DNA of 64,000 nt, taken from positions 326,608 through 390,607 of the forward strand of contig QPGO01000047.1 of the NCBI GenBank assembly GCA_008632985.1, in the 5' to 3' direction. The DNA comes from Psammoneis japonica (Eukaryota). The notes beneath the pieces are model-generated. The model searched no databases. It was not told where the DNA came from and worked only from the letters and a program-made list of their open reading frames with translations. The position numbers were made by a program, and so were the translations under genes. Positions 17,830 through 41,049 of the stretch are shown here, piece by piece; the stretch's first letter is position 1, and the number at the start of each line of letters is the position of its first letter.

Positions 17830-18067
17830 AGTTGGAAATGGTGAATTAAAAGTTCAAACACCAAAATTAGATAGCGTGAAGAAGACGTACGCGTCAGCGC
17901 TTGTGTGCTCCACGTGAAGCAACGAAACAGCCGATGGAAGCAGTCATTATTCTCTTTTAACTCTTAGAAAGTATTGGGATAACAAGCTTGTCTATTTTAG
18001 CCTCAGGATCAGACCTTAGAGGACTGAGGTGGCTCTGGAACAGTCACCAGAAGGATAAATTGCAACA
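17830..18067 (+). repeat. 5' LTR (238 bp)
   Basis: (a)gttggaaatggtga...aaattgcaaca aligns without gaps to 23632-23869, with 15 mismatches. Confidence 0.95.
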
Positions 18068-18171
18068 GCCAGAAGAGAGTGATCTCCAGCTGAGAGCTGT
18101 GAAAAGAAAGCAAGAAAGAAAAGAGTCACTCTCACGGCGTGTGAGATGTTTTGCTGCTTTGCCTTTTCATC

Positions 18172-21100
18172 ATGAGTGGAAGAGGCAAAGGTAGAAATGG
18201 CAACAGAAGCCAAGGAAGAGGACCCTCAGGAAGGGGAAACAAGAGTGGCAAGCAAAGCCACAAGGGCACCAATGATCATGTCCACTGTGTTGGAAGTGCC
18301 AAGCAAGCATCTGATTTTCAGATTGCTGCTGAGTTCATCATCAACTACATTGAGAAGACTTATGAGTTTGGAAATGACACTGCAACTGCACTCAACACTT
18401 ACACTCCATGTGACGTGAGTTCTGAGAAGCCGACTTTGCAGGTCAGCTTGACTGGAGATGACAAGGTGGACGCGCCATTGAACAAACAGTGTGAAATTGA
18501 GTTCAAGACAGAATTTGATGCTCACATTAAGAGGACCCAAACTTGTGAGAACAACCTTGTCAAGGCTTGTGCTTTGCTCTGGGAGAGATGTTCCAAGGCC
18601 ATGAAGAACAAGATTCAAGCAAGAGCCGAGTTCCAAACCAAAATTGAAAACGATCCTGTCGAGTTGCTCTCAAGGCCATTGAGGAGCATGCATTGAACTG
18701 CCAAGAGCACAGGTGTGACATGGCTGTCATCTCAGATTCAATGAGAGCGGTGCTGGAAACCAAGCAGAAGGAGAAGGAGAGTCTCCAAGATTGCACCAAG
18801 AGATTCAGGGTTGCAAGGGACGTCATGAAGTCTCACACTGGAGGACCAATTGTCCTCGCCAAGGCAGTGCAAGGCATGTCAGAACATGACAAGCACAATG
18901 CGGATTCTATCAAGAAGTGTCAAGAAAAGGCGTTCAGCCAATTGATGGGTTACATGTGCTTGGAGAACGCAGACCAGCGCAAGTGCGGATCAATTCTAAC
19001 AGGATTGAACACTCAGCAGTCCCTCAAGAACGACCAATGTCCCAAGTCCATTGCAGAAGCCAACACGGTGTTGAGCAACCACACTTTTGACCACGTTGGT
19101 CAGCCTGACAACTGCCACAACAAGAACAATCAAAAGAACAACTCTGACTCCAAGAAACAAGAAGAAAACCAAGAAATCACGCTGTCCTTCGCTCAGTTAG
19201 AAGGCAAGTGTTGCTGCTGTGGCAAGGCCGGACACAATTCCAACAAGTGCTGGGAAAGGCAAGGAAAACCTCAAGCAGAATGGGCCATCAACAAGGCCAA
19301 AGCCAAGCAAGAAGCAAGCAATGCTCAGGCGAGTGACAATGCCAGTGCAGCCAACTCTTCCACCAAAGAATCCACTGGAACAAAATCCACTGTTTTTCAG
19401 GATGGGCTGGCACGCACATCGATGTGTCTCTCTGCCAGGATCAATCTGGCAGCATGAGAGACTGGATTTTATTGGACAACCAGTCCACAACCACAATCTT
19501 CTGCAATGAGAAGCTCGTTGCAGACATCCATCCATCGGATGAAGCCATGCGTTTGCACACCAATGGCAGAGTCCCAGTCATGACACTCAAGGCCACGGTG
19601 CCAGGGTTTGGTGAGACTTGGTTTAACCCAGACGCAATCACCAACATTTTTGCTTGCTCCAACATGAAGAAGAAACACAGAATCACAAGTGATTCTAAGC
19701 AAGACAACGCATTCACCGTTCATCTCCCCAACAAGAAGGTCAGGTTCGAGGAGGACAGAAAAGGGCTGCATGTTTACAAGCCCAAGACAAACGACACTGG
19801 AGCTCAGCTCCAATTTGTGCAGAGTGTGGAAGAGAACAAGAAGTTCTACACTCCACGACAGTTTGAGAAAGCCAAGAGGGCTGGGGAATTGTTGCACGCG
19901 TTGGGAAACCCAACAGTGAACGATCTGAAGGCCATCATTTGCACGAACAGCATCAAGAACAATCCCATCACAATGGAGGATGTAGATTTGGCCGAGAAGA
20001 TTTTTGGACCAGACATTGGAAGTCTAAAAGGCAAGGTCACAAGGCAGAAGCCGGAGCCAGTTGTAGAAGACTACGTGGAGATCCCGAAGGAGCTCATTGC
20101 AGCGCAACACAAGGTCACTCTTTGCCTGGACGGTCTCAAGGTGAATGGATTGCCATTCCTCACTGCAGTGTCACGAAACATTTTTTATCGCACGGCACAA
20201 CCGCTCAAGGACTTGACCCAACCAACTCATCAAGAAGCTCTGGAAGATGTGCTGCGAGTCTGCAACAAGGCCGATTTGAAGGTCACACGCATTTGTTGCG
20301 ACAACGAATTCAGGCCCATTGGGAATGCACTAGAAGACAAGTTTGATCTCAAGATGAACTGCGCAAATGCTCAGGAGCATGTCCCAGAAGCCGAAAGAAA
20401 CAACCGAGTTATTCAAGAACGTGCCAGGGCAGTCCATCATCAGCTGCCATTCAAGCATCTGCCAAAACTCATGGTCGAAGTCATGGTCACCGAAGCTGCT
20501 GAGAAGCTCAGTTATTTTCCAGCCAAGCACAACGTTTCCAAACATTGCAGTCCAAGAATGATTCTCCATCAAAAGAATCTAGACTGTGACAAGAGCTGCA
20601 AGATCACGTTTGGCACTTGTGTGCAAGCTCACAATGACCCGGACCCCAAGAACACCCAAGAGTCACGGACCTTGGATTGCATTTATTTGCGCCCCACTGA
20701 CAGCAACCAGATTGGACATGAGTTGCTGCACTTGCAAACCGGCAAGAAGATCACTCGTCGCAAGGTCACCCCTGTGCCCATCACTCCCGCCATCATTGAG
20801 CAGGTTCATCGTTTGGCTGAAATGAACAAGATGCCCAATGGTCTCAAGATTCAGAACCGCACTGGAACTGTTCTTGGCTTGCAGGAGTGGATTGTGATGA
20901 AGAACAATTTGAAGACGAAGATTGCGATCTAGAAGAAGACATTGAAACTGAAGACGACGAGGAAGAAGAGCTCGGCTGGGGGGAGACTGCAACAGAGTTA
21001 GTCAAGAAGAGCTGCAAGACATAATTCGAGAACAAGAATTGGATGAAGAAGCCAGCCACATCAGTGAAGAACAAGACGAGACTCAAGAAGAAACCTCCAA

Positions 21101-23170
21101 TGATGAGCATCTCGGAGACAATGACGAAGTTGGTTCTCAACCGTCAGATGGCAGTGGAATTTCACAAGAAATCGATGACATGATTGACCACATTGATGAA
21201 CAACAGAGGCTGCTGGAACAAGAGAAGGAACACTCTCCAGAAGTGCAAGAGATCATCGACAAAATGAAAGACCTGGAATCTGATGATGAATCTGGAGAGG
21301 AGCAGAGTGAAACCAAAGAAAGTGTCCAAGAAGAGCCTGTTGCTACATCCAGGGCAGGAAGGACTCTGAAACCTCCAGCTAGATTGGGAGACTGCCAATG
21401 CCATCTACAGACTCAAGCTCATTCACAAGAAGAAGAGCACAGCTTAGAAACGGCCAGAATCATGGCCATGACAATGTGTCAGTGGAACGAGAAGATCAGC
21501 ACGATTTCCACTGATGAAGAAGCACATCAATTTATTCAGACGACTTGCAGCTTGGCACGAGGACTCCAGAAGTTTGGAGAAGAAGGCCACAAGTCGGCAG
21601 TGTCAGAGCTGAAGCAAATCCATGACAGAGTGGCTTTCAAACCCATTCACATCAATGACATGACTCCTCTGGAGAGGAAGAGAGCCATGGAGAGCCTCGC
21701 GTTTCTCACAGAGAAGAGAGATGGGCGAATCAAGTCAAGGTTGTGTGCAAACGGAAGCACGCAACGAGAGCACATGGACCGAGACGAAACCACCAGTCCA
21801 ACAGCATCCACAGAATCCATTCTCATCACAGGAGTGATTGATGCCAAGCAAGGCAGAGATGTTGTGACAGCGGACATCCCGAGCGCATTTGTGAAAACGG
21901 ACATCGAGGTCAAGGATGAAAAGATCATCATGAAGATCCATGGAAGGATGGTGGACATGTTGCTGGAATTGGATCCAGACACTTGCCAGGACTGCATCAT
22001 GTGCAAAGGCAAACACAAGGTTCTCTGTGTTGAAATGTTGAAGGCGCTCTGCGGAATGCTGGTGTCCTCCATTCTTTGTTGCAAGAAGTTCCGCAGAGAC
22101 ATCGAAGGAATCGGATTTGAGATTGATCCTCATGATCCATGTGTCGCCAACCACATCGTGAATGGAAAACAACACACGGTGACATGGCATGTGGACGATT
22201 TAAAGTCCAGTCACGTTGACAGCAAGGTCAACGATGAACTCAAGATTTGGTTGGACAAAACTTGTGCGGATGAGATCGGAAAGGTCAAAGTCACGCGTGG
22301 AAAGAGGCACGACTGCATGGCCATGACTCTAGATTGCTCCATTCCAGGAGCACTGCAAGTTGACATGATGCTTCATGTGCAAGGAATGGTCAAGGAGTTC
22401 TTCAAGGAATTCCCAGAAGAATTGTCGGGTGACGTGGATTGCCCGTGGAGCGAGAAGCTCAACAAGGTGGACGAGACAGCCAAGAAATTAGATCTCAAGC
22501 ATGCTCGGGCATTTTGCACTTTTGTGATGAAGGGCATGTGTTTGTGTGCAAGAGAGCCAGACAGGACATTCAGCCTGGCATTGCTTTTCTCTCCACCAGG
22601 GTCAAGGATCCAAATGAATTGGATTGGCCAAAGCTGGTGAGGCTCATGAATTTCCTCAAGACAACCCAGCTTGATGTCGCAGTCATGTCGGCTGGAGACA
22701 AAGTCATCATCGAGTGGCACACGGGCGCCGCACTCGCAGTCCATCTGGACCATAAAAGTCACACAGGTTCTGCCATGACCCTTGGAAAAGGTGTCATTAC
22801 ATCAGTCAGCACGAAGCAGAAGATCAACACCAGGAGTTCCACAGAAGCAAAAATCGTCGCAGGAGACGATGTTTTGGCAAAGGTCCTTTGGACCAAGCGA
22901 TTTGTTGAAGCTCAAGGTTTTGAAGTCGAGCGCAACATCATGCATCGAGACAACGAAAGTTGCACGAAACTAGAACAAAATGGAAAGGCCAGCTCGGGCA
23001 AACGCACGAGACATTTCAACGTGTCAAGCATTTTTGCATCACTGACCTCATCAAGCCAGGAGAACTTGAGGTTGAGTTCTGCCCAACAGACAAGATGATG
23101 GCAGATCACATGACCAAACCAGTGGTTGGTAAAAAGTTCATCATTGATCGTCAAGCCATCATGAACATCC
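18172..23170 (+). pseudogene. Copia gag-pol, frameshifted and Tyr-depleted
   Basis: Zn knuckle CCCCGKAGHNSNKC, protease WILLDNQST, integrase D..CCDNEF..EHVPEAERNNR, RT TADIPSAF / KALCG / WHVDDLK, RNase H SSTEA..RDNES. Confidence 0.95.
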
Positions 23171-23215
23171 AAGTGCCTGAGATGGTCAAATTTGGAAATG
23201 ACAAGAATCTTGTCA

Positions 23216-23607
23216 GACGCGTTCCAGGTCTAGAGGTGGGACCTCGTGCTGCTGAACTGTGACATCGACAGTTTTTTGAATCGCGTCGTATGTCGCGCAC
23301 GTAGATTTCTACGTGATTTTTTCGATATTTTGTGTCATTTTACGGTACACTTATTGAGCGATCCGTCCAACATCTTTTGACATTTTTTGTTACAGCGCGA
23401 TTCTATAATGTCTTAAGAATCGCGTAGGGCAGGCGCATTTGCAAAAACGTCGAGTGGTGTGAGGCATAATTGTACCACAAACTTGGCTGTTTATTTGATG
23501 TTGAAGACAAATATATCCATTGATTAAATTCTCGTACTACGGAGCTCGCACGTAGAATTCTACGGGCCCAATGTCACACGGAGTCCCACCTAGGGCTGGA
23601 ACGCGTC
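23216..23607. mobile_element. MITE copy A (392 bp) nested in the Copia 3' region
   Basis: TIR GACGCGTTCCAG...CTGGAACGCGTC (imperfect to ~30 bp). 4-bp TSD GTCA at 23212-23215 and 23608-23611. Reverse orientation relative to 59799-60188. Confidence 0.93.
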
Positions 23608-23631
23608 GTCATTGGTCAGCAGGAGTGTGCA

Positions 23632-23869
23632 TGTTGGAAATGGTGAGTTAAAAGTTCAAACACCAAAATTAGATGGCGTGAAGAAGACGCACGTGTCAGC
23701 GCTTGTGTGCTCTACGTGAAGCAACGAAACAGCCGATGGAAGCAGTCATCATTCTCTTTTGACTCTTAGAAAGTGTTGTGACAACAAGCTTGTCTATTTT
23801 GGCCTCAGGATCAGACCTTGGAGGACTGAGGTGGCTCTGGAACAGTCACCAGAAGGACAAATTACAACA
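23632..23869 (+). repeat. 3' LTR (238 bp)
   Basis: tgttggaaatggtga...aaattacaaca, with TG...CA ends. Confidence 0.95.
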
Positions 23870-23899
23870 GCAGCAAACTTCCAACAAAGGGTCCCATCA

Positions 23900-25450
23900 A
23901 GCATTGCCAAAAAGGGAGCCAAATGGCCCTCGTTGATTCCGGCATTCCTGTCAATCTCATGGCACACGCCGACAAACAATTGGAACGACTTTGCACCCAT
24001 TGTGTCCGTTCTCCTGCTGTGATGGATCATGTTTGTGGTTCTCCATTGGGTCGCAGGATTGTGGCTGAAGACATGGCCAGGATTGAGACATCATTGTTTG
24101 GACATCAGCTGCTTTGACTCCTTTGACCCAAATGACCTCCCAATCTCTCTTTGATGCAAAGTCTTGCCATGTTGTGCATTGATGGTGCCACCGGCATTGA
24201 CAAGCAGGCAATCCTTGGAGCACTGTCCAAAGAGGAAGATCCAAATGGCCCCAGCACCTGGGTTTTTGAAACTGCCTCAGCTGGTCATGTCAAAGACCTC
24301 TGCAAGTGGGAGATGGGTGAGCCCAACAAATTCATGGGGAGTGCAGATCCTGTGTTCATGCAAGAGCGCCAGAGTTGTTGGTGTGTGTGGAAATCAAAAC
24401 CACTGGGTGCACTCTCATCTGTGAGGGCCTTTTTTGGCAATTCTCACTGACGGGTTGACAACATCCAGAAACAGGTCTCCAATGTTGTCTCAGTGCATGT
24501 CTCTGCTGCAGCTGGCAGCTCAGGCTTCTTGGGAGTCTTTCCCAGCTACGACATGCAGTGCAAGAGCAGAAAAAAGCAGCCACGTGGGAGTTTTTGCAGC
24601 AAACTCTTTCCTGGTTTCATGCTCTTGTTCCTGAGTGGTTTGTGGCAGCATTGTCTTTGCTCAAAACAGTCTTGACAGGCCTTTTTGCAACATTTGTTGC
24701 TGACATTTCTCATGCCAAGCTCAAATGCCAAAGAGCTTGCCATCAGGTGCCAAGCTCTCAGCACTTGCAGTGCCATTTGCTCATTGTTTTGCTGCAGCAC
24801 TGGGCCCACAAGAGGCAACATGAGCCATCTCTCTTGAGTTGGGTTGGTCTCTCAGGTGATTGCAAGTTGCCTTGAGGACCTCAACATGGGGTGCTTGGCC
24901 TCCTTGGCTTGCTCAACTTCCTTGTTTGTGTGTCAGCAGGATCATTTCTGCCCCTGACTTCTGAGTTGAATTGCAGTGCTGGGTGCTGTTGGGTTGTCTC
25001 AACAGAGCTCTCTAAAACTCTCCATTTCTGGTTGCAAAACAAAGTGAGTTGACTCTGACCAAGCAGCAATTGTCAAATGTGTGCACAATGCATTGACACC
25101 AACAAAGGTTGCAACATGATGATCAAAATGACCAAAGAAGGACACCTTGACACCTGACACAAGGTGCAGGCTCTGACCACACTTTGCCAAAATGTGATCT
25201 TTGCATGTCCACACACTGGTGCTGAAACAGGTGCACAAGCAAGGCAAAATGCAAGTGCCTGGCAATTTGCCACAACCTTGTTTCAAAGAAACAACCACCC
25301 CTTTTCCACAGCACATGTTGTTTCTCCTGTTGTGGCAGAGGACCCCATTTGTGAACCTCCATTGGGGTTGCAGGCTTTGGCTTGGCTTCTTTGATCCAAA
25401 TGATCTCCCAATGTCTGCAGCTTCAAGTCACAAACTTGACAATGCACACA
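23900..25450 (+). pseudogene. Unidentified eroded coding-like sequence
   Basis: Protein-like fragments with an internally repeated motif (FDPNDLP at ~24122 and ~25390, each preceded by SP..PLG). Family not recognised. Confidence 0.3.
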
Positions 25451-25929
25451 TTTAGAATCCATCCAAGAACTGAGCAGCTTTTGTGCCACTTGTCTCATTT
25501 CTGATGCCGTGGAAAAAAGGAGAGGAGCTCAAGCTCAAGAGAGCAGTGCCCCGCCAAGGACCAGCCAGATGATGTGATGTGTTCACTGAGTCATCAGCAA
25601 AGGAAGCTTTCAAGCATTTGCAGTTCCAGCTCATGGGGGTCAGCAATGTTTTCAAATCATTGTCCTTGGAATTTGCATGGTCCTGGGAGAGAGAGCACTG
25701 GACATTTTGGGTTTCCAGCTCCTCCTGTCCCCATGTGTGCCACACTGCTGGTGCTGCATGCTTGCTCCAGTCCCAAGCAAACAATGCTCTGATTCCAACA
25801 TTCTTTTCAAAATGTCCAGAAATCTGTGGAAAATCTAGAAGGAAAACCAAGCTTGCTGTTCACCAGAATGTCACGCAGGTCGCAAAAAAGCAAAGAAAGA
25901 AAATGTGAGCAGCAGACAGCAGCATTTCT

Positions 25930-26760
25930 GATCTTTTGGCGAGCTCAGAGCTCAAGTGCAGGTTGACTTTTGGTGCCCACGCAGACATCCCTGCAATTCC
26001 AGCTCCTGATTGTGGCATCACGCCACTCAGCGGCTCTTTCGAAACATGCAGCAGGCAGTCTCAAGATTGTTGCAAGCACTTCAAGAGAAATGAGCATGGC
26101 ACAAGACAAGGACAATGTTCTTCCTGCAAGCAGTGTTTGATGCGAGCGTCATCATGAGTGTTCAACACCAGGTTCTGGGTGTTTTCTGCAGCAGGCCCTT
26201 TTTCTCACTTGTCATTTGTGTGCTGTTGGACATCGTGGGAGGATGTTTTTGAGAGATTGTCCAAGATTTTCTTCTTGACAGAAATTTTTCGTGTGTTGTG
26301 GTTGTCAGGAGAGGTGGCACTCAAGCCCAAAGTCACCATTGACCATCCGTGCAAAAAGGGTCACCTCAGTCCTTGCTTTCACGGTGAACACACCCTGAGG
26401 CATTGTCCTTCGGGCAAAGAATGGTGCATTGCCTGCAAGCTTTGTGAGGTGGCCTGTCCCACACAAGCCATTGCAATTGATGCTGAAGAGCATGAGGACG
26501 GAGCTTGTTGTGCAACGTGTTGTGACATTGACGCGACAAAATGCATCTGCTGTGGTTGTGCAAGTCATCACTTCTGATCAGCTTGATTTCTGTGTGATTG
26601 AATTGTTGATCTCACTTTTTAATCACAGTGCCAGGAAGCTTGACCAGTTGATGCGATTGTGCTGGAGGGACCCAACTTCAAATTTGCTGCTGAATTGAGG
26701 GACATCTGAGTGGACTGGTGGGGCAATGGGGTGCAAAAAAGTGACGGACAGATGCGTGCA
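25930..26760 (+). pseudogene. NDUFS8: Complex I TYKY subunit (NDUFS8/NuoI) pseudogene with intron
   Basis: KPKVTIDHPCKKGHLSPCFHGEHTLRHCPSGKEWCIACKLCEVACP...DIDATKCICCGC, then CQEA*PVDAIV..EGPNF after intron 26560-26628. Matches the family pattern [37 protein letters not shown] with Y->C/H and R->C/H/W changes. Confidence 0.95.
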
Positions 26761-28099
26761 TGCTGGGGGCACATGCAGACACCATGGAAGAGTGACTTTT
26801 GGCAACAATTTCCAAAATCTTTGGTCCTGTTCAAAGTTTTGTGTTGTGTGTGTGTTTTGTCAGCAGGGCTGTGCACTCTTCTTCATCAGTGTCTAAACCA
26901 AATGTCTGCAGAGGTGCGCACCATTGATGCACGTTGAATTGGTGATTTGGCACAGATTTTCAACGATCGCGCGTCAGTTGAGACCCAATCAGCACTCATC
27001 ATGTTGACACTCAAATGACAGCTCTTGTCATCTGCACTCAGATGAATGAATGTCCTGCACTCTAAAGAAAAGTTGCGCAGCGGTCTGGGGAGCTGGTCAA
27101 ATCTGACAGCAAAACTGCACGCCCGTCACTTGGAGAGAGTCAATTTTTGTGGAATTTTCAACACCAAAATGCGGCTCACATCTCCTCCTTGGCATCTGTC
27201 ATGATGGGACAAAGGCTTTGTTTGTCATGCAGTGGAGCACAAATGCAACAACTCCTGTTGACCACTTTTTGGAGCTTGTCCTTTGTTTTTTCAAAAAGAG
27301 CCTTGGAATCAAGAAGAGAAATTGCTGTTGACAATGATGCAAGTGTGTGGGCATTTTTGCTCATTTCTTGCCAATTGCAAGCATGTGCTTGCAACAATTG
27401 CTCAATTTGTCGTTGGTCTTGAAAGTTTCATTGTGAAAGAATGTGATTGAGTCACATTGCCATGGCATCAGAGACCGGCGTGCAAAATCCTTGTCGCCAT
27501 TGTCTCATCCACACAGTTCCACACAGTTTTAGCACCAGGCCTGCAGTGATGCATGCGTTTCATGCTTGCTGAAATTGGGCAAAACTTTGTCACTCATTTG
27601 GCGGTGACGTTTCTTCACAAGATTCAGCCCAACCAGCGCAACCAAGACACCACTGGAAAGCTGAGAAAGTCCTCTTTCGATCTGCTGCAATGAAAATGAC
27701 ATGATGACAGTTCTGTGCATGCACACTTCATTCACAAAAAATTCAGCCAAATGTGCATCAATGGCGCACACCTCTGCATGGGTCGAAATGTGTCAAGCCA
27801 AGTCATTCTTCCGAAGTCAGTGACAAAGAGGAAAGTCAACATTTTCTGTTCAAATGACACAACAGTTTTGTGCCAAGAAGTGTGTGATTAAATGTGAAAA
27901 TGTCAATGAAGTGACAATTGCACTTGAGTTGAATGGAGAAAATGCCGGGACAAAAAAATTTTGTCCTGCGGGTGCAGCGCGGAGAAAGCCAATTAGAAAA
28001 TGTCACCACAAAAATTTGGAAGTGGATGATTTTCTCTTTTTAGATGACACTCACTTGCCTCAATGCACAGAGTCACTGCTTCACACAACAAATCCTTTC

Positions 28100-28221
28100 T
28101 GAATTCAAGTCAATGTTTCTGATGACCATCACCTTGTGGAATGCCGGGTGTTTTTTCAACTGAATTCAAATCAATGTTTGTGATGACCACCACCTTGTGG
28201 AACACCGGGTGTTTTTTTAAC
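28100..28221. repeat. 61-bp tandem duplication
   Basis: tgaattcaa.tcaatgttt.tgatgacca.caccttgtggaa(tg/ca)ccgggtgtttttt occurs twice. Confidence 0.9.
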
Positions 28222-28394
28222 TTGCCCCACATTTTTAAATTGATGCTCCCTTCCTGAATTCAATGCAGTGTTTCAGCCACCCATCACCTTGTGCATTTCT
28301 GTGTGCCAATTGTTGGCTTTTTGGAGGAAATTGTTTCCTGCAATGACAACACAACAACAAGCAAGGCAATGGCAAAAGCAATGGCACTGCTTGC

Positions 28395-29790
28395 ATGATG
28401 GCTGCGACACTCAAGGAACAAAAAGGGGCTTTGTGACTGGCCAAAACAAAACAACAGCAGGGGAAATTGTGTTGATGTGTTTGCCATTGCCAGCTGGAGC
28501 TTGGTTGTTTCAGCTCATTGTGTCAAACCAACATGTTGAAAACAGCACAAGCAGCTTGATTGTGCTGGAAGCCACACTCATTCTGTCTCCAATGATGTTG
28601 GCTCAGATGGATTGTTTGCATCTGTGAGGACTCGTGACAGTGGTGCTCAATTTTCTCATTGCACCTTGGCTGTGGTTTGGGCAAGGTCTGGGTGCACCTG
28701 CATGAAGGAGAACAAAAAGCGGCAAACCACTGATCCATTGCCAGTGAGCAGCATGAAGAAGAGTTGTTTGCATTTTTTGACATGCTGTCAATTGAGCATC
28801 CTCTGCTTGACCTTTGTGGCAATTTTGGCTGTGGACTTTCCAGCTTTCCTTCAAAGATTTGCCAAAACAGAGGTTTCAGGATGTGGGCTGATGGATCTGG
28901 ATGCTGGTTTGTTCATGGTGGCTGCCGGCATTGTGTGGGCTTGAGCAAGAAAAAGTGACAAGCAACCAAGCATGGAAATGATTGGAAAAATGCTGCCTCT
29001 TGTGGTCATGGGAAGCACGCGTCTTGTGACAAACATGGCAGTGGAATGCCAGGAGCACACATCCAAGTGTGGCATTCACTGGAATTTCTTCTTCTCTGTT
29101 GTGGCAATGGCACCCCTGGGATCAATGCTGAGTTTGCCAAAGAAGTGGCAGTCTTGCAATTGGGTTCTTGCCTTGGTGACAATGACAATGTGTCAAGTGT
29201 TGCTTTCAAAGTTTGGGCTGTGAGACCACATCATGAGGCACCAAGATCCTGTGTCAAGCCAAATGAAACTGACGTGCTTTGCAGCTTGTTTGCGGCCAAT
29301 CAAGAAGGCATTCTGGGGTGCGTGGGTCACATTGGTGTCTGCATTTTCAGCAAAGATCTGGCTCACTTTTGCTTGTGGGGTGGCCACAGCAAGTCACAAG
29401 GCACTGGGCTTGCGGCATGCTTGGCAGGATTGTGGTTCCTTCACTGCACACTCACGCACATGCTTGACGTCTCTGCATCCCAAAGAATGGCCAATGTCAG
29501 CTGCTGCATGTGGGCCACTGTGAAAACAGCGACAAACAAAACAATGCCGCCCATCTTTGACTCTGTCAACAAGAGCGGGTTGCTGATTTTTGTTGTTGCC
29601 AATCTCTTGATGGGTCTTGTCAATCTCTCTGTCAACATGTTGGAGGCAAGTGATGTCAAGGTGATTTGCATTGTTGTTGCACACCTTGGTGCAGTTGGGG
29701 GATTTGCTCTGTTGGCAGATGGCATCCTTTTGCCTTTTCTGCAGGCCAGCTTTGAACAAAGTCTGCACATCATGAAAAGAAAAAGGTCAA
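28395..29790 (+). pseudogene. PIGW: GPI inositol acyltransferase (PIG-W/GWT1) pseudogene
   Basis: AILAVDFPAFLQRFAKTEVSGCGLMDL, ECQEHTSKCGIHWNFFF (cf. EYQEHxxEYGxHWNFFF), ANQEGILG, SQRMAN, NKSGLLIFVVANLLMGLVN. Stops and frameshifts present. Confidence 0.93.
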
Positions 29791-30149
29791 ATGATGTGAA
29801 TTGGTTTTTGTCATCTCCACACGGAATGCGTGCAACTTGCTTCACTGGAGTTCTTGGACAACATTTGCATGGAAACAAAATTGGCAAGCACAAAGCAAAA
29901 TTGAAAAAAACCAAAGTCCTGAATGGACCCTTCTGACAGACAAGAACTCTCTGCTGAGTCAATGCCACGCCTCTCTTCCACAAGAAAAGCCAAACACCTG
30001 GACTGGAATTGGCTCCCAAGAATTGCCGAGGCATCTCAGGTGCGCAAAGGCATCCATCCCATGGCCTTCAAGAAAAGCAATGAAGAGAAATTGATTGGTT
30101 TTTAAATTGGCGCAAGAATGCTTGCAAACAGAACAGACCACAGAGCAGT

Positions 30150-31550
30150 GTGCACAACAAACAAGAACAGCAGGAATGTCAGATTTGCCATCCATGATCA
30201 TCATGCTCAGGTCACCACCAAAGTGTTGAGTGCAACTCCTTGCAGTGGGCAACCCAAAACCCAAACCTGCCAAAGGAGTGTCAGTGGATTGATCTTGAGA
30301 ACCACCAATCATGTTCTGTTGCACCTTTGCATCTGCTGTTGTAAAGAGACACTTTAAGACTCGTTTGGCTTGTGATCAAGGCATTCCACCATCCTCATTG
30401 GATGCCTTGGTGACAGTGTCTTCATTCTCTGTGTTGTTGGCAATCACAATTGTTGTGGGTGGAAGCTCATCAAGAGTGTTGCTGTGTGTGACCATGGTGG
30501 CCTTCATGGCATTCTCAACAAGCTCCAGCAAAACACAGTGCAAATTTGTTGGAATCCACACACAAAGGTCAAGTCAAGTCTCCCTGCAATGTCAACATCA
30601 AGCGGGGCTTTGCCACATTGTTTCTTGCAAATCATGGTTGCACCACTGGCAGCAATTCACACAATTTCTTTTGGCGAAGTTTTTGGACAAACAGCACCAA
30701 TGCAGTCTGGAATGGGCTCATGTTGCAGTGCCAAATGCTGCCCAGCCAAGACCCGAGTGCCAATCTGACTCGTGTGGAACCAATCCTGAAAGGAGTGCAT
30801 CTCTTGCATCAGATCAAGCTCAAAGATTCTGTCTTCACCACACTTGCCCACCAATTCTCCCTTTGCAACAGCTGCTTGCAATTCAAAAGTGCCCCCAGCC
30901 ATTTCTGCAAGTGCCCTGGAATGTTTTTCATGCAAGGCCTCTGGGTGATTGGCAAAATGAGCTTCATCCTGGACTCACTGAATTTCAGGCCAATGGCTCA
31001 GCTTGTTGAAGGAGTCTGTGTAAATCTGCTTGACTGCCTGAACTGCTGGCATGTTGCTTGTCATGGGGGGCTGGTCTAAATCAGGAATCCCACAAGCAAA
31101 TCAAACTGGATTTTTTTTCTCACAAAGCTTGCCACCAGTGCAATCTTTTTGAAACTGTGCAAAGAAAAGTTGCGGCGCTGCTTCAGCATCACAAAATGAG
31201 TGCATGGCCATCTGCTCTTGTGCAAGCAGTTGTTGCAAAATGGCCAAGTCTTGCTTCAATGTTGCCAATCCTTGGTTTGTCCATCTTTGCCATCCTTTTC
31301 ATCCCAGCTAAAATCTCCTTTTTCTCCCTTCTTCTTTGACTGCAAGCATCTTTTCCATTGAGATGCCATCCTTGCAACTGAGGCTCCAATGTCATCATCA
31401 ACGTGATGATGGTTGTTGGCTGGGTGTTGCTTTGGCAGGAATTCTGTGTTGGGCGTTACAACGGAATCAGATTTCCCGCCAAAATTGAAACTCAAAACTT
31501 TGGATTTTGACAAAACAACATTTTTGGTGATGCGTTCCTCAGTTGCTGAA
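30150..31550 (-). pseudogene. PDK: Mitochondrial pyruvate / branched-chain ketoacid dehydrogenase kinase pseudogene
   Basis: FQDWFHTSQIGTRVLAGQHLAL (cf. FLDRFYxSRIGIRxLxxQ), IPTNLHCVLLELVENAMKAT (N box), SNEDGGMP, PLAGLGFGLPTARSCTQHFGGDL. N-terminal boundary uncertain. Confidence 0.9.
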
Positions 31551-32099
31551 GCACAGCAACAGATTGTGATGAAGTCAATGACTGAACACAGTCAAGGATT
31601 TTGAAATGGTGGCTGTCAGTCTTTAGACACATTTTGAACAGAAAAAAATGTTGCACCCTGCAATGCAGAACACAGTTGAATCTCTTTCTTTGGGATGCAA
31701 AGTGTGTTTTGAATGAAATGTTGGCTGGTGAGTGTGGCTGGTGCGCTGGCACAAGCACACAAGACCCAGCATCATGCTTCACACACCACACAAAAACAAA
31801 GAAGTGCTCATCATTTTGACAAGAGACAAGAGAGGGAGAACAATGACAATGGAAGCAATGTTGCTGGTTGAGATGGAGAGGCAAAGGCTCTGGACTTGAC
31901 AGGCAAGTAAAGACTGGCTGCAGTGCTGAAGAGTGAGCTTCATCTCACATTTTTCTTGCTTGCAACGACAGCAGATTGTGAGCAAAATCCACTCTTTCTT
32001 GCTGCAAAGGCACGCACTGTGCACATCCTCAGTGGCACATTCAATGCTTTTGCTCCTGACTTCTTGGCTCATCCCTTCATTTCTCTTTTCATTTGCTCA

Positions 32100-34830
32100 G
32101 GTTTCAGATCTGTTGCCACTTGCAGCATGCTGTGTTTTCAGAAGAAGGTCGTTGCATCAAGGACATCACAGGCTTGACTTTGGAAGATTTTTTGAAGCTG
32201 TTGGAAGAGAGCAAGGAAGAAGCCACGCAGGAGGCAGTGGGCAAGTTGGCTCAAAATGCTGTTTCAGGGTGCTGGAATCAATTTGGCACTGCATGGCCAA
32301 AGTGCAAGGAATGCATTGGATGCACCACCAAGAAGTCAAGGCTGCATGGCTCCGCTGTTCAGGGACTCTTGTGATGGGAGGGGCAGCAAGTGATGTTCTT
32401 GATGTGCCAAATTGTTTGCCCTTTCCTGTTGCTGACAAATGATGCTTCATTGTTCTTTGTTTAAATGGGCACGGGCAAAGGAATCCAGACTGGCACTGCA
32501 GTTCACAAAAGTTGGCCAATGCTTTGACATGGGAAGCCGGGTTGCTGCTTGCAAGAGTGTGGCTGTGGTCAAGCTGCCATGTCATTTGGCCTTCAGTGGA
32601 AACACAGCTTAAAAATTGGTTCAGATGCAAGCAAAACAAAATGAACAATGGCAATTTATGCGCAAAACATGATGTGGTTAGAAATTGCAGTTGTGGCTCC
32701 CTTTTAACACCAACAAGACAGCATTCAATCTGGGAGAACTGTTGCACTTTAACTGACAGTCAACTGCTTTTCGAGTGGCACTCCTGCTTTGACAGTGGGG
32801 AGCTGAGCAACTTCCTAGATTTGCCACAGTTTGCTCAGTTTGCATGTGAAATTTTGTCTGGCCCTGCTTTCCATTCATGTGTGACATGCTTCTGGGCATG
32901 TGAAAAATCCTGCTTTGCATTTTCCAGAGAGGAGGCCTGACCCAAATGACTGAGGTCCCAGATGCATTGTCGATTCCGGGTCCATGGGGCCTGTCTTGCT
33001 GGCGAACATTTGGATCATTTGTGTTGGCAGCTTCATCTGCACACATGGAATGACAGTGGGCCTTCTTGGCCTCATTGGAGACTTGACAGCATTGATGCTA
33101 AAATGGGACAAAGGCTGATGGGGCAGCCCCGCCTTTCAGTCTCTGGGACAAGTGAGCCACCCTGTCATTTCCGGCATTTTGGGTGCCCTCCCTCAGCTGC
33201 ACTCACTGGTGTTGCATTGGCGGTGGTGTTTTGCACCCTTTGCTCCTTTGTTGGGTGTTTGCAATGTGCTTGTGTGGGGCCAACTGGCTCAGATCTCTCT
33301 CATGTCTCTGGGTGCAGTTTGGGAACTCTTCAGGTGTGCTGCGGGGGTGTGCGCGGATGCACTCCAGCCCTGGGTGGGACTCCGTGAGACATTGGGCCCG
33401 CAGAATTCTACGCGCAAGCTCTGCAGTGTGAGAATTTAATCAATGGATGCACCTGTCTTCAACATCAAATGAACCGCCAAGTTTGTGGTGCAATTGTGCT
33501 GTGCCTCTTGCAACTCAATGTTTTTGCAAATGCGCCTGCCCCACACGATTCTTAAGACATTGTAGAATCGCACTGTGACAAAATGTGTCAAAAGTTGTTG
33601 GATGGATTGCTCAACAAGTGCACCGTGTAAAATGACACAAAATGTCACCAAAATCACGCAGAATTCCACATGCGTGGCATGCAACGAGATTCAAAAAACT
33701 GTCAATGTCACAGTTCAGCAGTGCAAGGTCCCACCTGGACCTGGAACTTGTTTGCATCAGTTGCCACCTCTGCCAGATCTGCTTTTGGATGCTGCTCCAG
33801 GGATTGAGGTGTTGCACCAGATTTTTCTTTCCTTGTGGTGGCACTGGGATGGGGGGTCCTTGCCATTGTTCTGATGGCAGCCAACCAAGGAACAGCAGTT
33901 GGGGGCACATGATGGAGCACTTGTCTTTGTCAAAGGCACATTGCCACGAAACTCCAGACAACAATGCATTCATGCCCCCCCAAAAAATTGGCCACATGGC
34001 TGAAAAACTTCAGAAAGTTTGCAACCATTGATGCACTCAGCCAGGTGAGGTGATCAGCCTTGCTGATTGCTTTTGGGTCCCCAAGGCAGCGCGTTTTGAA
34101 CCACAAGACAGCAAACTGTTGGAGGCAGTGGAGGACATTGGTGTGGTGTGCAATGGCACCTCCTCTGGGCCAAATGGGCCCTGTGGGCCCCTTCCTTCTT
34201 TTTGCCCACTGCTTCCTCCATGCTTGGGTGTGTGACAGAATCCACATTTTCTGTCAACCTTGATTTGGGCAATGTGGTTTTAAACTTCTTCATGAACCCT
34301 AAAATTTGGCCTTGCGCAGGGGCTCATCTCAAGGTGGCAGGTCAGGAGCACTTGACTGGGCTGTTCATGGGAATGAGACCAAGTCCTTGCCTTGCCATCC
34401 AGGTGTGTCACTGGGCTGACAAAGCAGCCCACGGGATCCTCTTCGGAAGTCAAACCCCATGGGGTTTGTTTCGAAGCCCCAGGCAATGAAGTGTAACTCT
34501 CACACAAGAGCCACAGTGGGAGATGTCAAAACCTTTGCTGATTGTCTTTGGCATTGGGGTTCAGAGCAAGGAGAACGCATGGCAAGCAGCACATCAAATG
34601 GCTGCTGGTCTGCAGCATTTTGGTTCACAGAATGCCCCGTGCAAGCTCAGCCCTCCATCCCAATGTGAGACAGGAGCTTGGGTGGGCGGCATCTTCAGGG
34701 TCACAGACAAGAAGGTAGTTCAGACAATTGCACAGGCCAAGTGGGACAAGGGAAAGAGAATGGCTTCTGAGCTGCTCTCGAAGCACAAAAACCAACCGGA
34801 AGGGTTCCTGCCCTCATTCAACTTCTATGA
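32100..34830 (+). mobile_element. DIRS/Ngaro-like retrotransposon RT remnant, hypermutated, interrupted by MITE copy C
   Basis: WWHWDGGSLPLF, DCFWVPK..DIGVVCNGTSSG, LWAPSFFLPT, NLDLGNVVLNF, LFMGMRPSPC, GDVKTFAD, LQHFGSQNAPCK..GAWVGGIF..KWDKGK. Family assignment is from recalled motifs; left boundary uncertain. Confidence 0.75.
33356..33752. mobile_element. MITE copy C, heavily mutated
   Basis: Colinear with 59799-60188. Eroded TIRs gatgcactccag / ctggaacttgtt. Flanks cgcg and tgca are compatible with an eroded 4-bp TSD. Confidence 0.9.
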
Positions 34831-38858: not shown

Positions 38859-41049
38859 GATGCGGTTGAAAGAGACCACTGCTTATTGTGCAGTTCACCT
38901 GTTCAGAAATCTTTAAACTTGTGCTTTGTGTTGCTTCCAAGTTCATGTGACGAAATGATACGCATGAAGTGGCTTTGTGCGTCGCAAATCATTCTTGTTT
39001 GTGGTGATTGGTCTTGAAACTTGAAATTTCTATTTAAAGCCACTCCAATACCAATTCTGATTCCTTGAAGATCTTGATTTGATGAAAATTGTAGGATCCA
39101 TACGTGTTGCTCTTGCAAGCACTCGTATTGCATTATCCCGATTGTGTGGTAACAAGAAAAATGTGAGCGTCCAATGAAAAAGTGAACTCAACGGTCGACC
39201 GATAAAAACGGAGGATGTCACGTGATCAATTTTAGTTTATATTTTTGTATACATTTAATGTTCAATCCGACAAAGCACTGCAATTAGAAGTGTCTCTTGT
39301 GCAAACAGGCAGCGCGGTGCAGAAGGAACGGCAACAGTTGTTCAGTGTTAACAGCATGCTTCCTCATTTGTTCAATTGAGTTGTCGTGCATCTTGCCATT
39401 GTCCAGTGCCAGAGACACGCAGAATCGTGCGCACTGTGCAAAGTGCCAAAAAAAGGTGTGCAGTTTGGGGTTTGGGATTGCGCAATGAGCCTGTGCCTGG
39501 ATCGAGGCACGTGCTGGACTCAAGGGCACACGCGTGCGCAACGAGAAATCTTTCTCTTCTTGTGTGACAAAAAAAAAGAGGTGGCATTGGCCTTTGCGTC
39601 AACCGTGGGATTAACGCCAATCGCATCAGATCCAGGTTCCCCCCCTTTTCATGGGCCGCATGCAGTCCAAGAAATGCACTTGCCTCCCATTTTCATGGGG
39701 GCCGCATGAGGCCCACACAAGTCATGCAAGCTCACCTGAGGAGACAGATGCTGCAAATTTCCAAGAGGGAGAGTGACAAGAGTTGACTTTCCAAGTCATT
39801 GGTTTCTGAGTCGATGACATGGGTTGGTCACGTGCGGGAACACACCCTCTTTGTGAGTCACTTTTTCGGGTCATTTGTTGAACCTTTGTCTGGTCCACTT
39901 GCAAATGCATGGAATTTGGCACTGAGTTGACACCTTTGGTCCCTTGAGATCTTTTGGGTCACTTTTGAGGCTCTCTTCTCCTCTCTCTCACTTCTTGTGG
40001 ATTTTCATGTTCGCCAGGATCACGAGCACTTGAGCCGTTGACACATGTCTGCTTCAGACAGTTGTTGTTGCCCCAGCTTGTGCTGTCATCTAGCTCATTT
40101 CCATGGAAAGCAGTCACATGGCACAGCAAAAGCAAATGGACAAGCCACCAAGGACAAAAAAGTTGTTGTTGTTTGTTGCCCCATTGTTCGCCAAGCAGGC
40201 AGCCCTCTGGAGGCAGCTGGGCAGCCAAGCAAACACACCATCATGGATGGCAGCAAGTGTGAGCACATGACCAGGCTGGGGCATCTTGCTTGGACTCTGC
40301 TGCAGGGCATCTGTCTTGCTTGGACTCTGCTCTGGGGCACCTTGCTTGGACTGGACAACTGGCCATTGTCCGAGCCCATTTTTTGACCAGCGAGCACCTG
40401 GTTTCGTGGCTGAACAACTCCAGCTGGCCCAGAAGCCAATGCCCATGGCAGCGTGTGTGCTCCTGGCAAGGCCTGTCTCTCCTGCTTGGGCTCCCAAGGC
40501 CAAGGTTGCTGACAATGAGCTGCTCAGCAAGGATGGGCTGTTGCCACACAAACAGCATGAGGTGCCCTGCCTCGTGATGTGAATGAAGACGATCCTCTTG
40601 CAGGCAAGTGAGAGCATCTGTTGTCAGAGGCTGTTTCTTTTCTGTTGAAGGTGCACTGTCCTGCACTCACAAATCTTTTCTGCTGCGGCCATTTGCTCTG
40701 AGCATCGCCAGCTTGCCTTGACACACACCCTGAGGCACCCGGCCTTGTGATCAAGTGCACTGCAGTGGGTCTTGAAGATGCTCTTTGCTGCTCCCTCAAG
40801 CATGTCACACAGCTCAATTCAGGCAAGTCTGGGTCATTGTTGCAAGTGCGGCAGAGGGCCATGTGCTTCCAAGCATGGTTGAAAAACTCATGCCATGGCC
40901 AACACTCCAGAATGTGTGACTGTCATGGTGCTGTCCACATCGCTCTCTCTTGCCAAATCAGAGAAAAAGTCCATCAGACTTTGCACCAAAGCACCCAAAA
41001 TGATGAACAGCACACTTTGTTCTGGGTGAAACAGAGCCAAAGAAATGCT

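What the first reader, a model, noticed from the sequence alone, without database searches (positions are those of the whole stretch)
17830..34830. Directional TpA->TpG/CpA hypermutation of repeat-rich blocks (an 'inverse RIP'): candidate undescribed genome-defence or mutator process
Seen: long stretches have no TA (none found by eye in 24001-24300). The 533-aa RT-containing ORF 21039-22640 has zero Tyr, and positions that are Tyr in the families read Cys or His (KALCG for KALYG, PHDPC for PYDPC, RHCPSG for RRYPSG), meaning TAY->TGY/CAY. The same signature recurs at about 10.7-12.9, 39.3-46.0 and 59.2-62.8 kb while neighbouring genes look normal. Established: fungal RIP goes CpA->TpA and 5mC decay goes CpG->TpG, and neither removes TpA. 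Inference: a targeted A-to-G process acts on genomic DNA in silenced or repetitive domains. Candidate mechanisms are a DNA adenine deaminase (TadA-family enzymes favour UA/TA), deamination of methylated adenine, or Pol eta-type error-prone repair at WA motifs as in somatic hypermutation. I do not know of a prior description but could not search the literature.
Basis: partly seen in the sequence, partly recalled or inferred. Interest (0 to 1): 0.95.

Follow-up and report, generated by a model that had tools for sequence, protein, structure and literature searches.

The report
TpA-erasing hypermutation in diatom silent DNA
About 28 kb of this diatom-like window, covering transposons, repeats and dead copies of housekeeping genes, has had nearly every TA (and most CG) rewritten to TG or CA after the DNA was in place, a mutation process so far reported only once, in a 2026 preprint on an unrelated alga.

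Summary
Five sharply bounded blocks (about 28 kb of 64 kb) have TpA o/e 0.00-0.24 and CpG o/e 0.06-0.68. TpG and CpA gain almost exactly what TpA and CpG lose. Polarised comparisons all give TA->TG/CA: a repeat with two clean copies and one mutated copy, an LTR pair, and three pseudogenes and an RT ORF compared with homologues. The changes arose in DNA after insertion. Contigs of a public run at about 67x depth reproduce the TA-free sequence.
- CpG decays in the same blocks.
- The largest block is single-copy and holds dead NDUFS8, GWT1 and BCKDK-like genes.
- There is a strong flank rule: RTAY is erased and YTAR largely survives, so the target is A in T-A-Y.
The process is not undescribed. 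A 2026 bioRxiv preprint reports TpA-only hypermutation of integrated viruses in Bigelowiella natans. Homology places this window in a pennate diatom, so it is a second, distant lineage with a stronger signature. The enzyme is unknown; an adenine deaminase acting on DNA is the favoured inference.

The parts
10551..12850 (.). TA/CG-depleted block 1; no recognisable domain; internal 210-bp repeat pair at 10943-11152 and 11403-11612
   Evidence: 11 TA and 30 CG in 2300 bp. The repeat pair differs by 5 TG<->CA swaps. No Pfam hit.
17831..23871 (+). Copia-type LTR retrotransposon, hypermutated inside. The 5' LTR (17831-18069) straddles the block edge; the 3' LTR is 23633-23871.
   Evidence: LTR pair is 225/239 identical; 11 of 14 differences are TA<->TG/CA. 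TA count is 13 in the 5' LTR and 6 in the 3' LTR. RVT_2 hit. K-mer depth is about 1200-1835 against 67 for single copy.
20952..22637 (+). RT-containing ORF of the Copia element, without Tyr
   Evidence: 0 Tyr in 562 aa, against a mean of 3.7% in 60 homologues. The 14 conserved-Tyr columns read 8 Cys, 4 His, 1 Leu, 1 Thr.
23216..23607 (+). Clean copy of a ~390-bp MITE-like element inserted in the Copia 3' end; a TA-normal island inside the mutated zone
   Evidence: 7-8 TA per 100 bp here against 0-1 in the flanks. 95.9% identical to the copy at 59799-60188. Terminal inverted repeats and a GTCA target duplication.
23751..34800 (.). TA/CG-depleted block 3, mostly single-copy, holding pseudogenes of cellular genes
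   Evidence: 42 TA, 140 CG, 1277 TG and 1167 CA in 11,050 bp. Depth is about 67-91 over most bins. Contigs of 1732 and 5471 bp match with 0 and 8 differences.
26233..26562 (+). NDUFS8/TYKY (complex I 23-kDa subunit) pseudogene
   Evidence: E 9e-36 to plant NDUFS8 chains. 4 of 5 Tyr read C/H and 8 of 11 Arg read C/H/W in the printed alignment.
28540..29780 (+). GWT1 (GPI inositol acyltransferase) pseudogene: intronless here, one in-frame TGA at 28942-28944, one frameshift near 29.2 kb
   Evidence: Pfam GWT1 in three ORF pieces. 8 of 8 conserved-Tyr columns read Cys (6) or His (2). Of 13 Arg columns, 4 read Gln (CAA) and 1 reads TGA stop.
30660..30974 (-). Fragment of a BCKDK/PDK-type mitochondrial kinase pseudogene
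   Evidence: Pfam BCDHK_Adom3, E 4.5e-10. PDB BCKDK chains, E 1e-6.
33363..33747 (-). Older, mutated copy of the MITE-like element
   Evidence: Polarised by the two clean copies: 15 of 19 TA converted (8 TG, 7 CA) and 18 of 28 CG converted, while 21 of 22 TG and 19 of 21 CA were kept.
39251..46150 (.). TA/CG-depleted block 4, with ~92-106-bp tandem arrays (42202-43462) and an N gap at 44178-44286
   Evidence: 24 TA and 83 CG in 6900 bp. Arrays. No Pfam hit.
59301..59850 (.). Short TA-depleted stretch abutting a clean MITE copy
   Evidence: 6 TA in 550 bp.
59799..60188 (-). Second clean MITE-like copy; a TA-normal island
   Evidence: 5-9 TA per 100 bp. AGGA target duplication.
60201..62550 (.). 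TA-depleted block 5 with a 217-bp x3 tandem repeat (60519-61169). CpG is nearly normal in its right half.
   Evidence: 24 TA and 111 CG in 2350 bp. At 61-63 kb, TA o/e is 0.20-0.34 with CG o/e 0.88-1.09. Repeat units differ by 4-6 TG<->CA swaps.

Best explanation
A post-insertional, DNA-level hypermutation converts TpA to TpG or CpA on either strand. It acts within sharply bounded domains of a pennate-diatom-like genome. Those domains hold an LTR retrotransposon, MITE copies, tandem repeats and dead copies of cellular genes, which are most simply explained as a duplicated segment. The target is best described as A in 5'-T-A-Y-3', or equivalently T in 5'-R-T-A-3' on the other strand. RTAY sites are erased, YTAR sites largely survive, and the two strands behave about independently. 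In parallel, CpG decays to TpG/CpA in most of the same domains, as expected if they are cytosine-methylated silent chromatin. The two processes can be separated. Steps shown: the direction, the DNA level, the timing after insertion, the domain limits and the flank rule. Steps inferred: the chemistry is enzymatic adenine deamination to inosine (read as G) by a TadA/ADAT2-like or other DNA deaminase recruited to silent chromatin, and the process serves as a genome defence.
For: Size and mass balance. TA falls from 3.86% to 0.51% of dinucleotides and CG from 5.77% to 1.85%. TG rises by 3.26 and CA by 3.53 points. G+C is unchanged.

Direction.
- Mutated MITE copy against two clean copies: 15 of 19 TA and 18 of 28 CG converted, 40 of 43 TG/CA kept, 14 of 268 other sites changed.
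- GWT1: 8 of 8 conserved Tyr columns read Cys or His.
- RT ORF: 12 of 14 conserved Tyr columns read Cys or His.
- NDUFS8: 4 of 5 Tyr read C/H.
- 80 related Copia loci from metagenomes have TA o/e 0.45-1.09, and none of their 1-kb windows falls below 0.2.

After insertion, in DNA.
- 11 of 14 LTR-LTR differences are TA<->TG/CA.
- A DNA-transposon copy and tandem-repeat units are affected.
- Other genomic copies of the Copia element carry CA where this copy has TG at the same dinucleotide, at 18147/8, 19425/6, 20294/5 and 22263/4, and the reverse at 23142/3. These come from the 40 rows shown of 234.

Both strands. The MITE copy gives 8 TG and 7 CA. Tyr gives 18 Cys and 8 His in all.

Not a read or assembly artefact. 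Contigs of run X1 at about 67x word depth match 23873-25604 with 0 differences and 27932-33402 with 8.

Domain limits. TA density switches within 100-200 bp. Clean MITE insertions form TA-normal islands.

Flank rule. Survival is 0.006 for RTAY (2 sites, against 405 in the unmutated part of the window), 0.105 for mixed contexts, 0.46 for YTAR and 0.78 for TTAA (chi-square p 3e-30). An independent baseline of 17,578 TA in 80 related loci gives 0.005, 0.078 and 0.325.

Separable from CpG decay. The LTR pair shows 11 TA-site changes and 1 CpG change. At 61-63 kb, TA o/e is 0.20-0.34 while CG o/e is 0.88-1.09.

Precedent. TpA-only A:T->G:C mutation was measured at about 6e-7 per site per generation in mutation-accumulation lines of B. 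natans (preprint).
Against: - No whole genome is held. Candidate deaminase genes, the parent copies of the pseudogenes, genome-wide extent and methylation could not be examined.
- Run X1 is probably the sample the assembly came from and its library type is not on record. Platform independence is therefore not proven.
- The flank rule cannot tell an A-targeted from a T-targeted lesion.
- The polarised events are too few to confirm the flank rule directly: A followed by Y was mutated 19 of 95 times and A followed by R 12 of 93 times, p 0.24. The rule rests on surviving sites compared with baselines.
- The DNA contexts reported for amphioxus ADAT2 are GAA for A and TCG for C, not TAY (PMC10354150, passages).
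- A defence function is inferred only from the targets.
- None of the 120 best RT homologues is Tyr-poor (minimum 2.6%) and none of the 80 related loci is TA-free, so no second organism was found here. Both searches favour intact copies.
Confidence: 0.72

Rival explanations
1. The primary lesion is on thymine, not adenine. A TET/JBP-type oxidase converts T in R-T-A to 5-hydroxymethyl- or 5-formyluracil, which mispairs with G and gives T->C.
For: The flank rule is symmetric: T-A-Y on one strand is R-T-A on the other. The data therefore fit a T target equally well. From recall, not from any call: hydroxymethyluracil is enriched at TpA in dinoflagellate DNA and 5-formyluracil is mutagenic.
Against: No evidence here for such bases or enzymes in this organism. 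The only experimental precedent (B. natans preprint) leaves the chemistry open and favours deamination.
Confidence: 0.1
2. TpA is symmetrically N6-adenine-methylated in silent chromatin, and 6mA is lost to hypoxanthine. This would be the adenine counterpart of 5mCpG decay.
For: TA, like CG, is a self-complementary dinucleotide. Both are lost in the same domains with both-strand symmetry.
Against: From recall: known eukaryotic 6mA is at ApT, not TpA. ApT is only mildly lower in the blocks, 5.47% against 5.99%. TA loss occurs where CpG is intact. No methylation data.
Confidence: 0.07
3. Sequencing, base-calling or assembly artefact at modified bases.
For: Modified bases can cause A/G and C/T miscalls in some long-read data (recall). 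The only run that holds the stretch may be the assembly's own sample.
Against: K-mer contigs at about 67x reproduce 7.2 kb of TA-free sequence with 8 differences. Clean MITE islands with sharp edges sit inside the blocks. The pseudogenes also carry a frameshift and other decay. Conversion is incomplete and depends on context.
Confidence: 0.03
4. RNA-level A-to-I editing (ADAR-like) of retroelement transcripts, fixed by reverse transcription.
For: ADARs prefer a 5' U (review PMC10661471, Table 1 passage). One affected unit is a retrotransposon.
Against: The two LTRs of one insertion differ at TA sites. A MITE, tandem repeats and intergenic DNA are also affected. Both strands are hit. TAG, the ADAR motif, survives better than TAY. 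From recall: ADARs are metazoan.
Confidence: 0.02
5. The blocks are foreign or specialised DNA that was always TA/CG-poor, or selection against TA made them so.
For: The blocks are compositionally distinct, with sharp edges.
Against: Conserved Tyr and Arg codons are rewritten in four protein families. A sister copy of the same repeat keeps its TA. Related elements elsewhere have normal TA.
Confidence: 0.02

Closest known systems
TpA-specific hypermutation of integrated NCLDV and virophage DNA in Bigelowiella natans (Mettrop et al., bioRxiv 2026, doi 10.64898/2026.01.13.699255; read: abstract, Results, Discussion, term searches)
   Same: Only TpA is hit, giving TpG or CpA according to strand. 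The process is confined to blocks beside normally mutating DNA. That genome also has 124 TpA-depleted, CpA+TpG-enriched clusters enriched for RT and DDE domains and unannotated ORFs, some with host-type domains. A deaminase is proposed.
   Different: The host there is a rhizarian; here homology points to a pennate diatom. There the proven targets are single-copy viral inserts still holding 3.3% TpA. Here the targets are a Copia element, MITE copies, tandem repeats and housekeeping-gene pseudogenes, with TpA down to 0.5%. The preprint text has no occurrence of CpG, flank or context. Co-occurring CpG decay and the T-A-Y rule are shown only here. No de novo rate could be measured here.
Repeat-induced point mutation (RIP) of ascomycete fungi, and the TCG-type variant in basidiomycetes (PMC3318451, search listing only)
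   Same: DNA-level, post-integration, dinucleotide-specific transitions. They riddle transposons and duplicated genes with missense and stop codons in blocks and leave neighbouring genes intact.
   Different: RIP is C->T, mostly at CpA, and creates TpA. Here TpA is destroyed and G+C stays constant. Dependence on duplication is not shown here, and a MITE-like family whose k-mer depth corresponds to several hundred to about 1300 copies has nearly clean members.
Deamination decay of methylated CpG
   Same: CG->TG/CA on both strands in transposon-rich DNA. This explains the CpG half of the signature. Related Copia loci in metagenomes show CpG o/e down to 0.09 with normal TpA.
   Different: It cannot remove TpA. 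TA loss is faster than CpG loss in the young LTR pair (11 to 1) and occurs where CpG is intact.
TadA/ADAT2-3 tRNA adenosine deaminases and their DNA-active forms (amphioxus ADAT2, PMC10354150, passages; evolved TadA in adenine base editors)
   Same: A-to-I chemistry read as A->G. The natural substrate has U 5' of the target A, followed by C in the ACG anticodon (PMC10661471, Table 1 passage). This resembles T-A-Y.
   Different: No gene could be examined. The DNA contexts reported for amphioxus ADAT2 are GAA and TCG, not TAY. No chromatin targeting is known.
APOBEC3 and ADAR hypermutation of retroelements and viruses in animals
   Same: Enzymatic editing used against selfish nucleic acids; clustered transitions.
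   Different: Those enzymes act on cDNA or dsRNA during replication and are strand-biased. Here resident double-stranded genomic DNA of any origin is hit on both strands.

Membership tests
B. natans-type TpA hypermutation | Substitutions fall on TpA and are A:T->G:C | tested here: met
   15 of 19 ancestral TA were converted in the MITE copy. 11 of 14 LTR differences are at TA sites. 28 of 32 Tyr columns or positions do not read Tyr; 26 of them read Cys/His (8/8, 12/14, 4/5 in those three; the remaining 5 are counted in the total of 32). CpG->TpG/CpA occurs in addition.
B. natans-type TpA hypermutation | Both products, TpG and CpA (either strand) | tested here: met
   8 TG and 7 CA in the MITE copy. 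6 TA<->TG and 5 TA<->CA in the LTR pair.
B. natans-type TpA hypermutation | Confined to foreign or repetitive blocks beside normally evolving DNA | tested here: met
   Edges are sharp within 100-200 bp. Flanking genes have TA o/e 0.43-0.91.
B. natans-type TpA hypermutation | De novo rate about 1000-fold above background in mutation-accumulation lines | not testable with these tools
   Needs experimental lines. Only historical divergence is seen here.
B. natans-type TpA hypermutation | Same enzyme or pathway (ADAT2-like candidate) | not testable with these tools
   No genome is held for this window. The enzyme is unproven in B. natans too.
Fungal RIP | C:G->T:A transitions that raise TpA | tested here: not met
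   TpA falls 7.5-fold, from 3.86% to 0.51% of dinucleotides. The direction is TA->TG/CA.
Fungal RIP | Triggered by sequence duplication | tested here: inconclusive
   Housekeeping-gene pseudogenes suggest a duplicated segment, but the parent copies were not seen. High-copy MITE members are nearly clean.
5mCpG deamination decay | CpG->TpG/CpA with other dinucleotides untouched | tested here: not met
   The CpG part fits: 18 of 28 CG converted. TpA loss of equal size does not fit.
ADAR-type editing fixed by retrotransposition | Only reverse-transcribed sequence affected; A->G on the sense strand | tested here: not met
   The LTRs of one insertion differ, a DNA transposon and tandem repeats are affected, and both strands are hit.
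Pol-eta WA-motif mutagenesis | A mutated after A or T (WA) | tested here: not met
   AA is 9.01% of dinucleotides in the blocks against 7.56% outside, so it is not depleted.

The most novel reading that the evidence does not exclude
Diatoms and chlorarachniophytes share an old, chromatin-directed DNA adenine-deamination defence with T-A-Y specificity. It permanently scrambles any silenced DNA: transposons, viral inserts and even duplicated cellular genes. That would make it a true functional counterpart of fungal RIP outside fungi. It would run in the opposite chemical direction, and its enzyme would be a natural DNA adenine editor acting on resident double-stranded genomic DNA.
Probability: 0.3. 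Interest if true: 0.92.

Novelty: new member of a known kind. Interest (0 to 1): 0.78.

Why it matters
- Spread. If the process is the same as in B. natans, it spans two distant branches of the SAR supergroup. It would then be a general eukaryotic mutational process, not an oddity of one alga.
- New details. This window adds a flank rule (T-A-Y), sharp domain edges, co-occurrence with CpG decay but independence from it, and the destruction of housekeeping-gene copies.
- Practical consequences. LTR divergence here is 79% TpA changes (11 of 14), so insertion ages based on LTR divergence would be badly overestimated. TA-free DNA keeps only TGA stops and fills with long spurious ORFs. Homology tools lose the elements: the RT scored only E 1e-7 in Pfam.
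- Possible use. A natural enzyme that edits A in resident genomic DNA with dinucleotide specificity would interest base-editing work.

Tried and rejected
No genome-wide map, parent genes or deaminase census was possible.
- Earlier scan notes: nothing on this genome, sequence or signature; the word hits were unrelated phage cases.
- Run search: 1 holder (X1) and 2 same-sample runs. No RNA holder is listed, so nothing can be said on expression.
- Runs X2 and X3 cover little of the stretch. One X2 contig is about 90% like 26003-26293 and skips 105 bases. This may be a spliced or intron-less parent of the NDUFS8 copy, but it was not followed up.
- Strand runs of TG against CA events in the LTR and Tyr series: the events are interleaved or too few, so there is no evidence of single-strand processivity.
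- Direct test of the flank rule on polarised events: the trend is there but it is not significant, p 0.24.
- CpG flank rule: only a mild W>S effect and no TCG specificity.
- Tyr-poor relatives among the 120 RT homologues: none. TA-free windows among the 80 metagenome loci: none. The search pattern contained Tyr, so mutated copies were disfavoured.
- Protein atlas on a neighbouring ORF for taxonomy: uninformative.
- Literature: five searches found only the B. natans preprint for TpA-targeted hypermutation. A search for 'YAC' context of TadA editors returned yeast-artificial-chromosome hits, so that recalled preference is not used as evidence.
- The preprint's supplements could not be seen. They may hold flank contexts.
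Full report
**Observation.** Sliding 1-kb windows show that TpA is almost absent (o/e 0.00-0.24) in five blocks: 10551-12850, 18001-23300, 23751-34800, 39251-46150 and 60201-62550, plus a short stretch at 59301-59850. The rest of the window has TA o/e 0.43-0.91. Base composition predicts 1170, and the window's own background predicts 667. The stretch 24001-24300 has none. ORF 21039-22640 has no Tyr, and the three quoted peptide motifs are present. TG and CA rise to o/e 1.4-2.1.

The books balance. TA falls by 3.34 and CG by 3.93 percentage points of all dinucleotides. TG rises by 3.26 and CA by 3.53. Base composition is unchanged. The balance also roughly holds within each of the 16 flanking contexts.

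**Is it in the DNA?** One public run (X1) holds 94% of the sampled words of 24001-34000. Its contigs have about 67x word depth. They match 23873-25604 with 0 differences, 27932-33402 with 8, and 33718-35218 with 1. The run may be the assembly's own sample and its library type is not recorded, so this shows the reads support the bases but not that a second platform does. Three further points argue against an artefact. Two copies of a 390-bp repeat sit inside the blocks as TA-normal islands with edges sharp to about 100 bp. Conversion is incomplete and depends on context. The affected genes also carry a frameshift and other decay.

**Direction.** Three independent polarisations agree.

1. The 390-bp MITE-like repeat has two near-identical clean copies (23216-23607 and 59799-60188) and one copy inside a block (33363-33747). 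Where the clean copies agree, the third copy has converted 15 of 19 TA (8 to TG, 7 to CA) and 18 of 28 CG (10 TG, 7 CA, 1 AG). It kept 21 of 22 TG and 19 of 21 CA. Only 14 of 268 other sites changed.
2. Protein outgroups.
   - In the Copia RT ORF (0 Tyr in 562 aa, against 3.7% in 60 homologues), 14 conserved-Tyr columns read 8 Cys, 4 His, 1 Leu and 1 Thr.
   - In a GWT1 pseudogene, 8 of 8 conserved-Tyr columns read Cys (TGY, 6) or His (CAY, 2). Of 13 conserved Arg columns, 4 read CAA and 1 reads TGA, which is its only in-frame stop.
   - In an NDUFS8 pseudogene aligned to plant NDUFS8, 4 of 5 Tyr read C/H and 8 of 11 Arg read C/H/W.
3. Eighty related Copia loci from metagenomes have TA o/e 0.45-1.09, and none of their 1-kb windows falls below 0.2. 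Several are strongly CpG-depleted.

**Timing and level.** The two LTRs of the Copia insertion (17831-18069 and 23633-23871) were identical at insertion. They now differ at 14 of 239 sites: 11 are TA<->TG/CA, 1 is CG<->TG, and the 3' LTR has lost more TA than the 5' LTR (6 left against 13). Even the two clean MITE copies differ at 16 sites, 8 of them TA<->TG/CA. Tandem-repeat units inside the blocks differ by 4-9 TG<->CA double swaps per pair. Other genomic copies of the Copia family (depth about 1200-1835, roughly 20-25 copies at 90% likeness or more) carry CA where this copy has TG at the same dinucleotide. One example is 22263/4, where this copy has Cys for a conserved Tyr. Of 222 listed kinds of change in X1, 190 are transitions.

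The process therefore acts on resident DNA, independently in each copy, on both strands. It affects a DNA transposon and non-transposon DNA as well as a retroelement. This excludes RNA editing fixed by reverse transcription.

**What is in the blocks.** The block at 18.0-23.3 kb is the interior of a Copia element. Its nearest named relatives are in Nitzschia and Epithemia. The 11-kb block at 23.75-34.8 kb is single-copy by depth. It holds recognisable remains of three cellular genes: NDUFS8/TYKY at 26233-26562, GWT1 at 28540-29780 and a BCKDK/PDK-type kinase at 30660-30974. All three are riddled with Tyr and Arg replacements, so they must be dead copies. The simplest origin is a duplicated segment, but the parent genes could not be looked for. 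The other blocks hold tandem arrays and nothing recognisable.

The block edges lie within 100-400 bp of the ends of apparently normal long ORFs, for example 34.8/35.18 kb, 38.88/39.3 kb and 46.1/46.2 kb. One edge falls inside the 5' LTR, not at the end of the element. Both facts point to a positional (chromatin-domain) limit and not to recognition of particular elements.

**A flank rule.** The 142 surviving TA in the blocks are not a random sample of contexts. Relative to the unmutated part of the window, survival is:

| Context | Survival |
|---|---|
| RTAY | 0.006 (2 sites; 405 in the unmutated part) |
| RTAR and YTAY | 0.105 |
| YTAR | 0.46 |
| TTAA | 0.78 |

Chi-square over the 16 contexts gives p 3e-30. 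Using 17,578 TA from the 80 related loci as the baseline gives 0.005, 0.078 and 0.325. This fits two independent strand events, each hitting A in T-A-Y readily and A in T-A-R poorly, with TAA least. The same rule can be written R-T-A for a thymine target, so it does not identify the damaged base. It predicts more Tyr->Cys than Tyr->His, because the coding-strand A of TAY always has a 3' pyrimidine. The observed counts are 18 Cys and 8 His. A direct test on the few polarised events shows the trend only: A followed by Y 19 of 95, A followed by R 12 of 93, p 0.24.

**Relation to CpG decay.** CpG loss shows only a mild flank effect and looks like ordinary methyl-cytosine decay. The two processes can be separated. 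The young LTR pair has 11 TA-site changes against 1 CpG change. The Copia interior has TA o/e 0.09-0.18 with CG o/e 0.31-0.68. At 61-63 kb, TA o/e is 0.20-0.34 with CG o/e 0.88-1.09. Related elements elsewhere lose CpG without losing TpA.

**Organism.** No genome is held. The fucosyltransferase gene gave no informative names. The named hits to the GWT1 copy are almost all diatoms: Seminavis, Thalassiosira, Odontella, Fragilaria, Cylindrotheca and Chaetoceros. The named relatives of the RT are Nitzschia inconspicua and Epithemia. No Bigelowiella protein appeared in either list. The window is therefore most likely from a pennate diatom or a close relative, whose own proteome is not in the database.

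**Known or new.** Five full-text searches found one relevant paper: Mettrop et al., bioRxiv 2026 (abstract, Results and Discussion read). In mutation-accumulation lines of Bigelowiella natans, 231 of 302 new single-nucleotide mutations fell in two integrated viral regions. All but one of these were A->G or T->C, all of those at TpA, at about 6e-7 per site per generation. The genome also has 124 TpA-depleted, CpA+TpG-enriched clusters enriched for RT and DDE domains. The authors propose an ADAT2-like DNA adenine deaminase.

This window is a second case, in a distant lineage, with much more complete erasure, other targets, parallel CpG decay and a flank rule. The words CpG, flank and context do not occur in the preprint text. 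Its supplements could not be seen.

**Mechanism.**
- Shown: direction, DNA level, both strands, domain limits and flank dependence.
- Inferred: an enzyme-driven adenine deamination (A to inosine, read as G) directed to silent chromatin.
- For the inference: the precedent above; the tRNA deaminase lineage acts on an A preceded by U and followed by C in the ACG anticodon; an animal ADAT2 can deaminate DNA (PMC10661471 and PMC10354150, passages).
- Against or open: that ADAT2 prefers GAA and TCG in DNA, not TAY; ADAR's UAG motif fits worse than TAY; thymine oxidation or 6mA loss are not excluded; no gene could be examined.
- Rejected: Pol-eta WA mutagenesis, because AA is not depleted.

**Verdict.** This is a real, striking and barely explored mutational process, here in a new lineage.

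Noticed in passing
23216-23607 (+), 59799-60188 (-), 33363-33747 (-): A ~390-bp MITE-like element with ~25-bp terminal inverted repeats and 4-bp target duplications (GTCA, AGGA). Its k-mer depth is 37,000-87,000 against 67 for single copy, which means several hundred to about 1300 genomic copies. Clean copies appear to insert into already mutated blocks.
   Followed up: partly
all TA-free blocks, e.g. 23751-34800: Only TGA stops remain, so the blocks are full of long overlapping ORFs in all six frames. Many of the window's 240 ORFs of 90 aa or more lie here. A gene caller would over-predict in these regions.
   Followed up: partly
26003-26293: A contig of run X2 (depth 552) is about 90% like this stretch and skips 105 bases (26125-26229). 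It may be the spliced or intron-less parent of the NDUFS8 copy. The skipped piece now starts near GCAAG and ends in TGG, as if GTAAG and TAG had been hit by the same TpA mutation.
   Followed up: no
61000-62550: TpA is depleted (o/e 0.20-0.34) while CpG is normal (0.88-1.09). ORF 61764-62726 (-) of 321 aa, with no family hit, lies here. This may be a recently targeted or unmethylated domain.
   Followed up: partly
35178-38882 (-): A 1235-aa ORF with no Pfam hit. It has internal 48/72/96-bp tandem repeats (36540-37203) and strong GC skew (0.29 over 36-38 kb).
   Followed up: no
48944-57441 (-): Two adjacent giant ORFs (1955 and 953 aa) without a Pfam hit. The language-model atlas places the second weakly near HYDIN/Cep192-type Ig-domain proteins.
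   Followed up: partly
L001-L080 (metagenome loci): Several related Copia loci are strongly CpG-depleted (for example L068, CG o/e 0.09) with ordinary TpA (0.51). CpG decay of this element lineage is common, whereas TpA erasure was not seen in any of the 80.
   Followed up: yes
44178-44286: An assembly gap of 109 N inside TA-free block 4.
   Followed up: no
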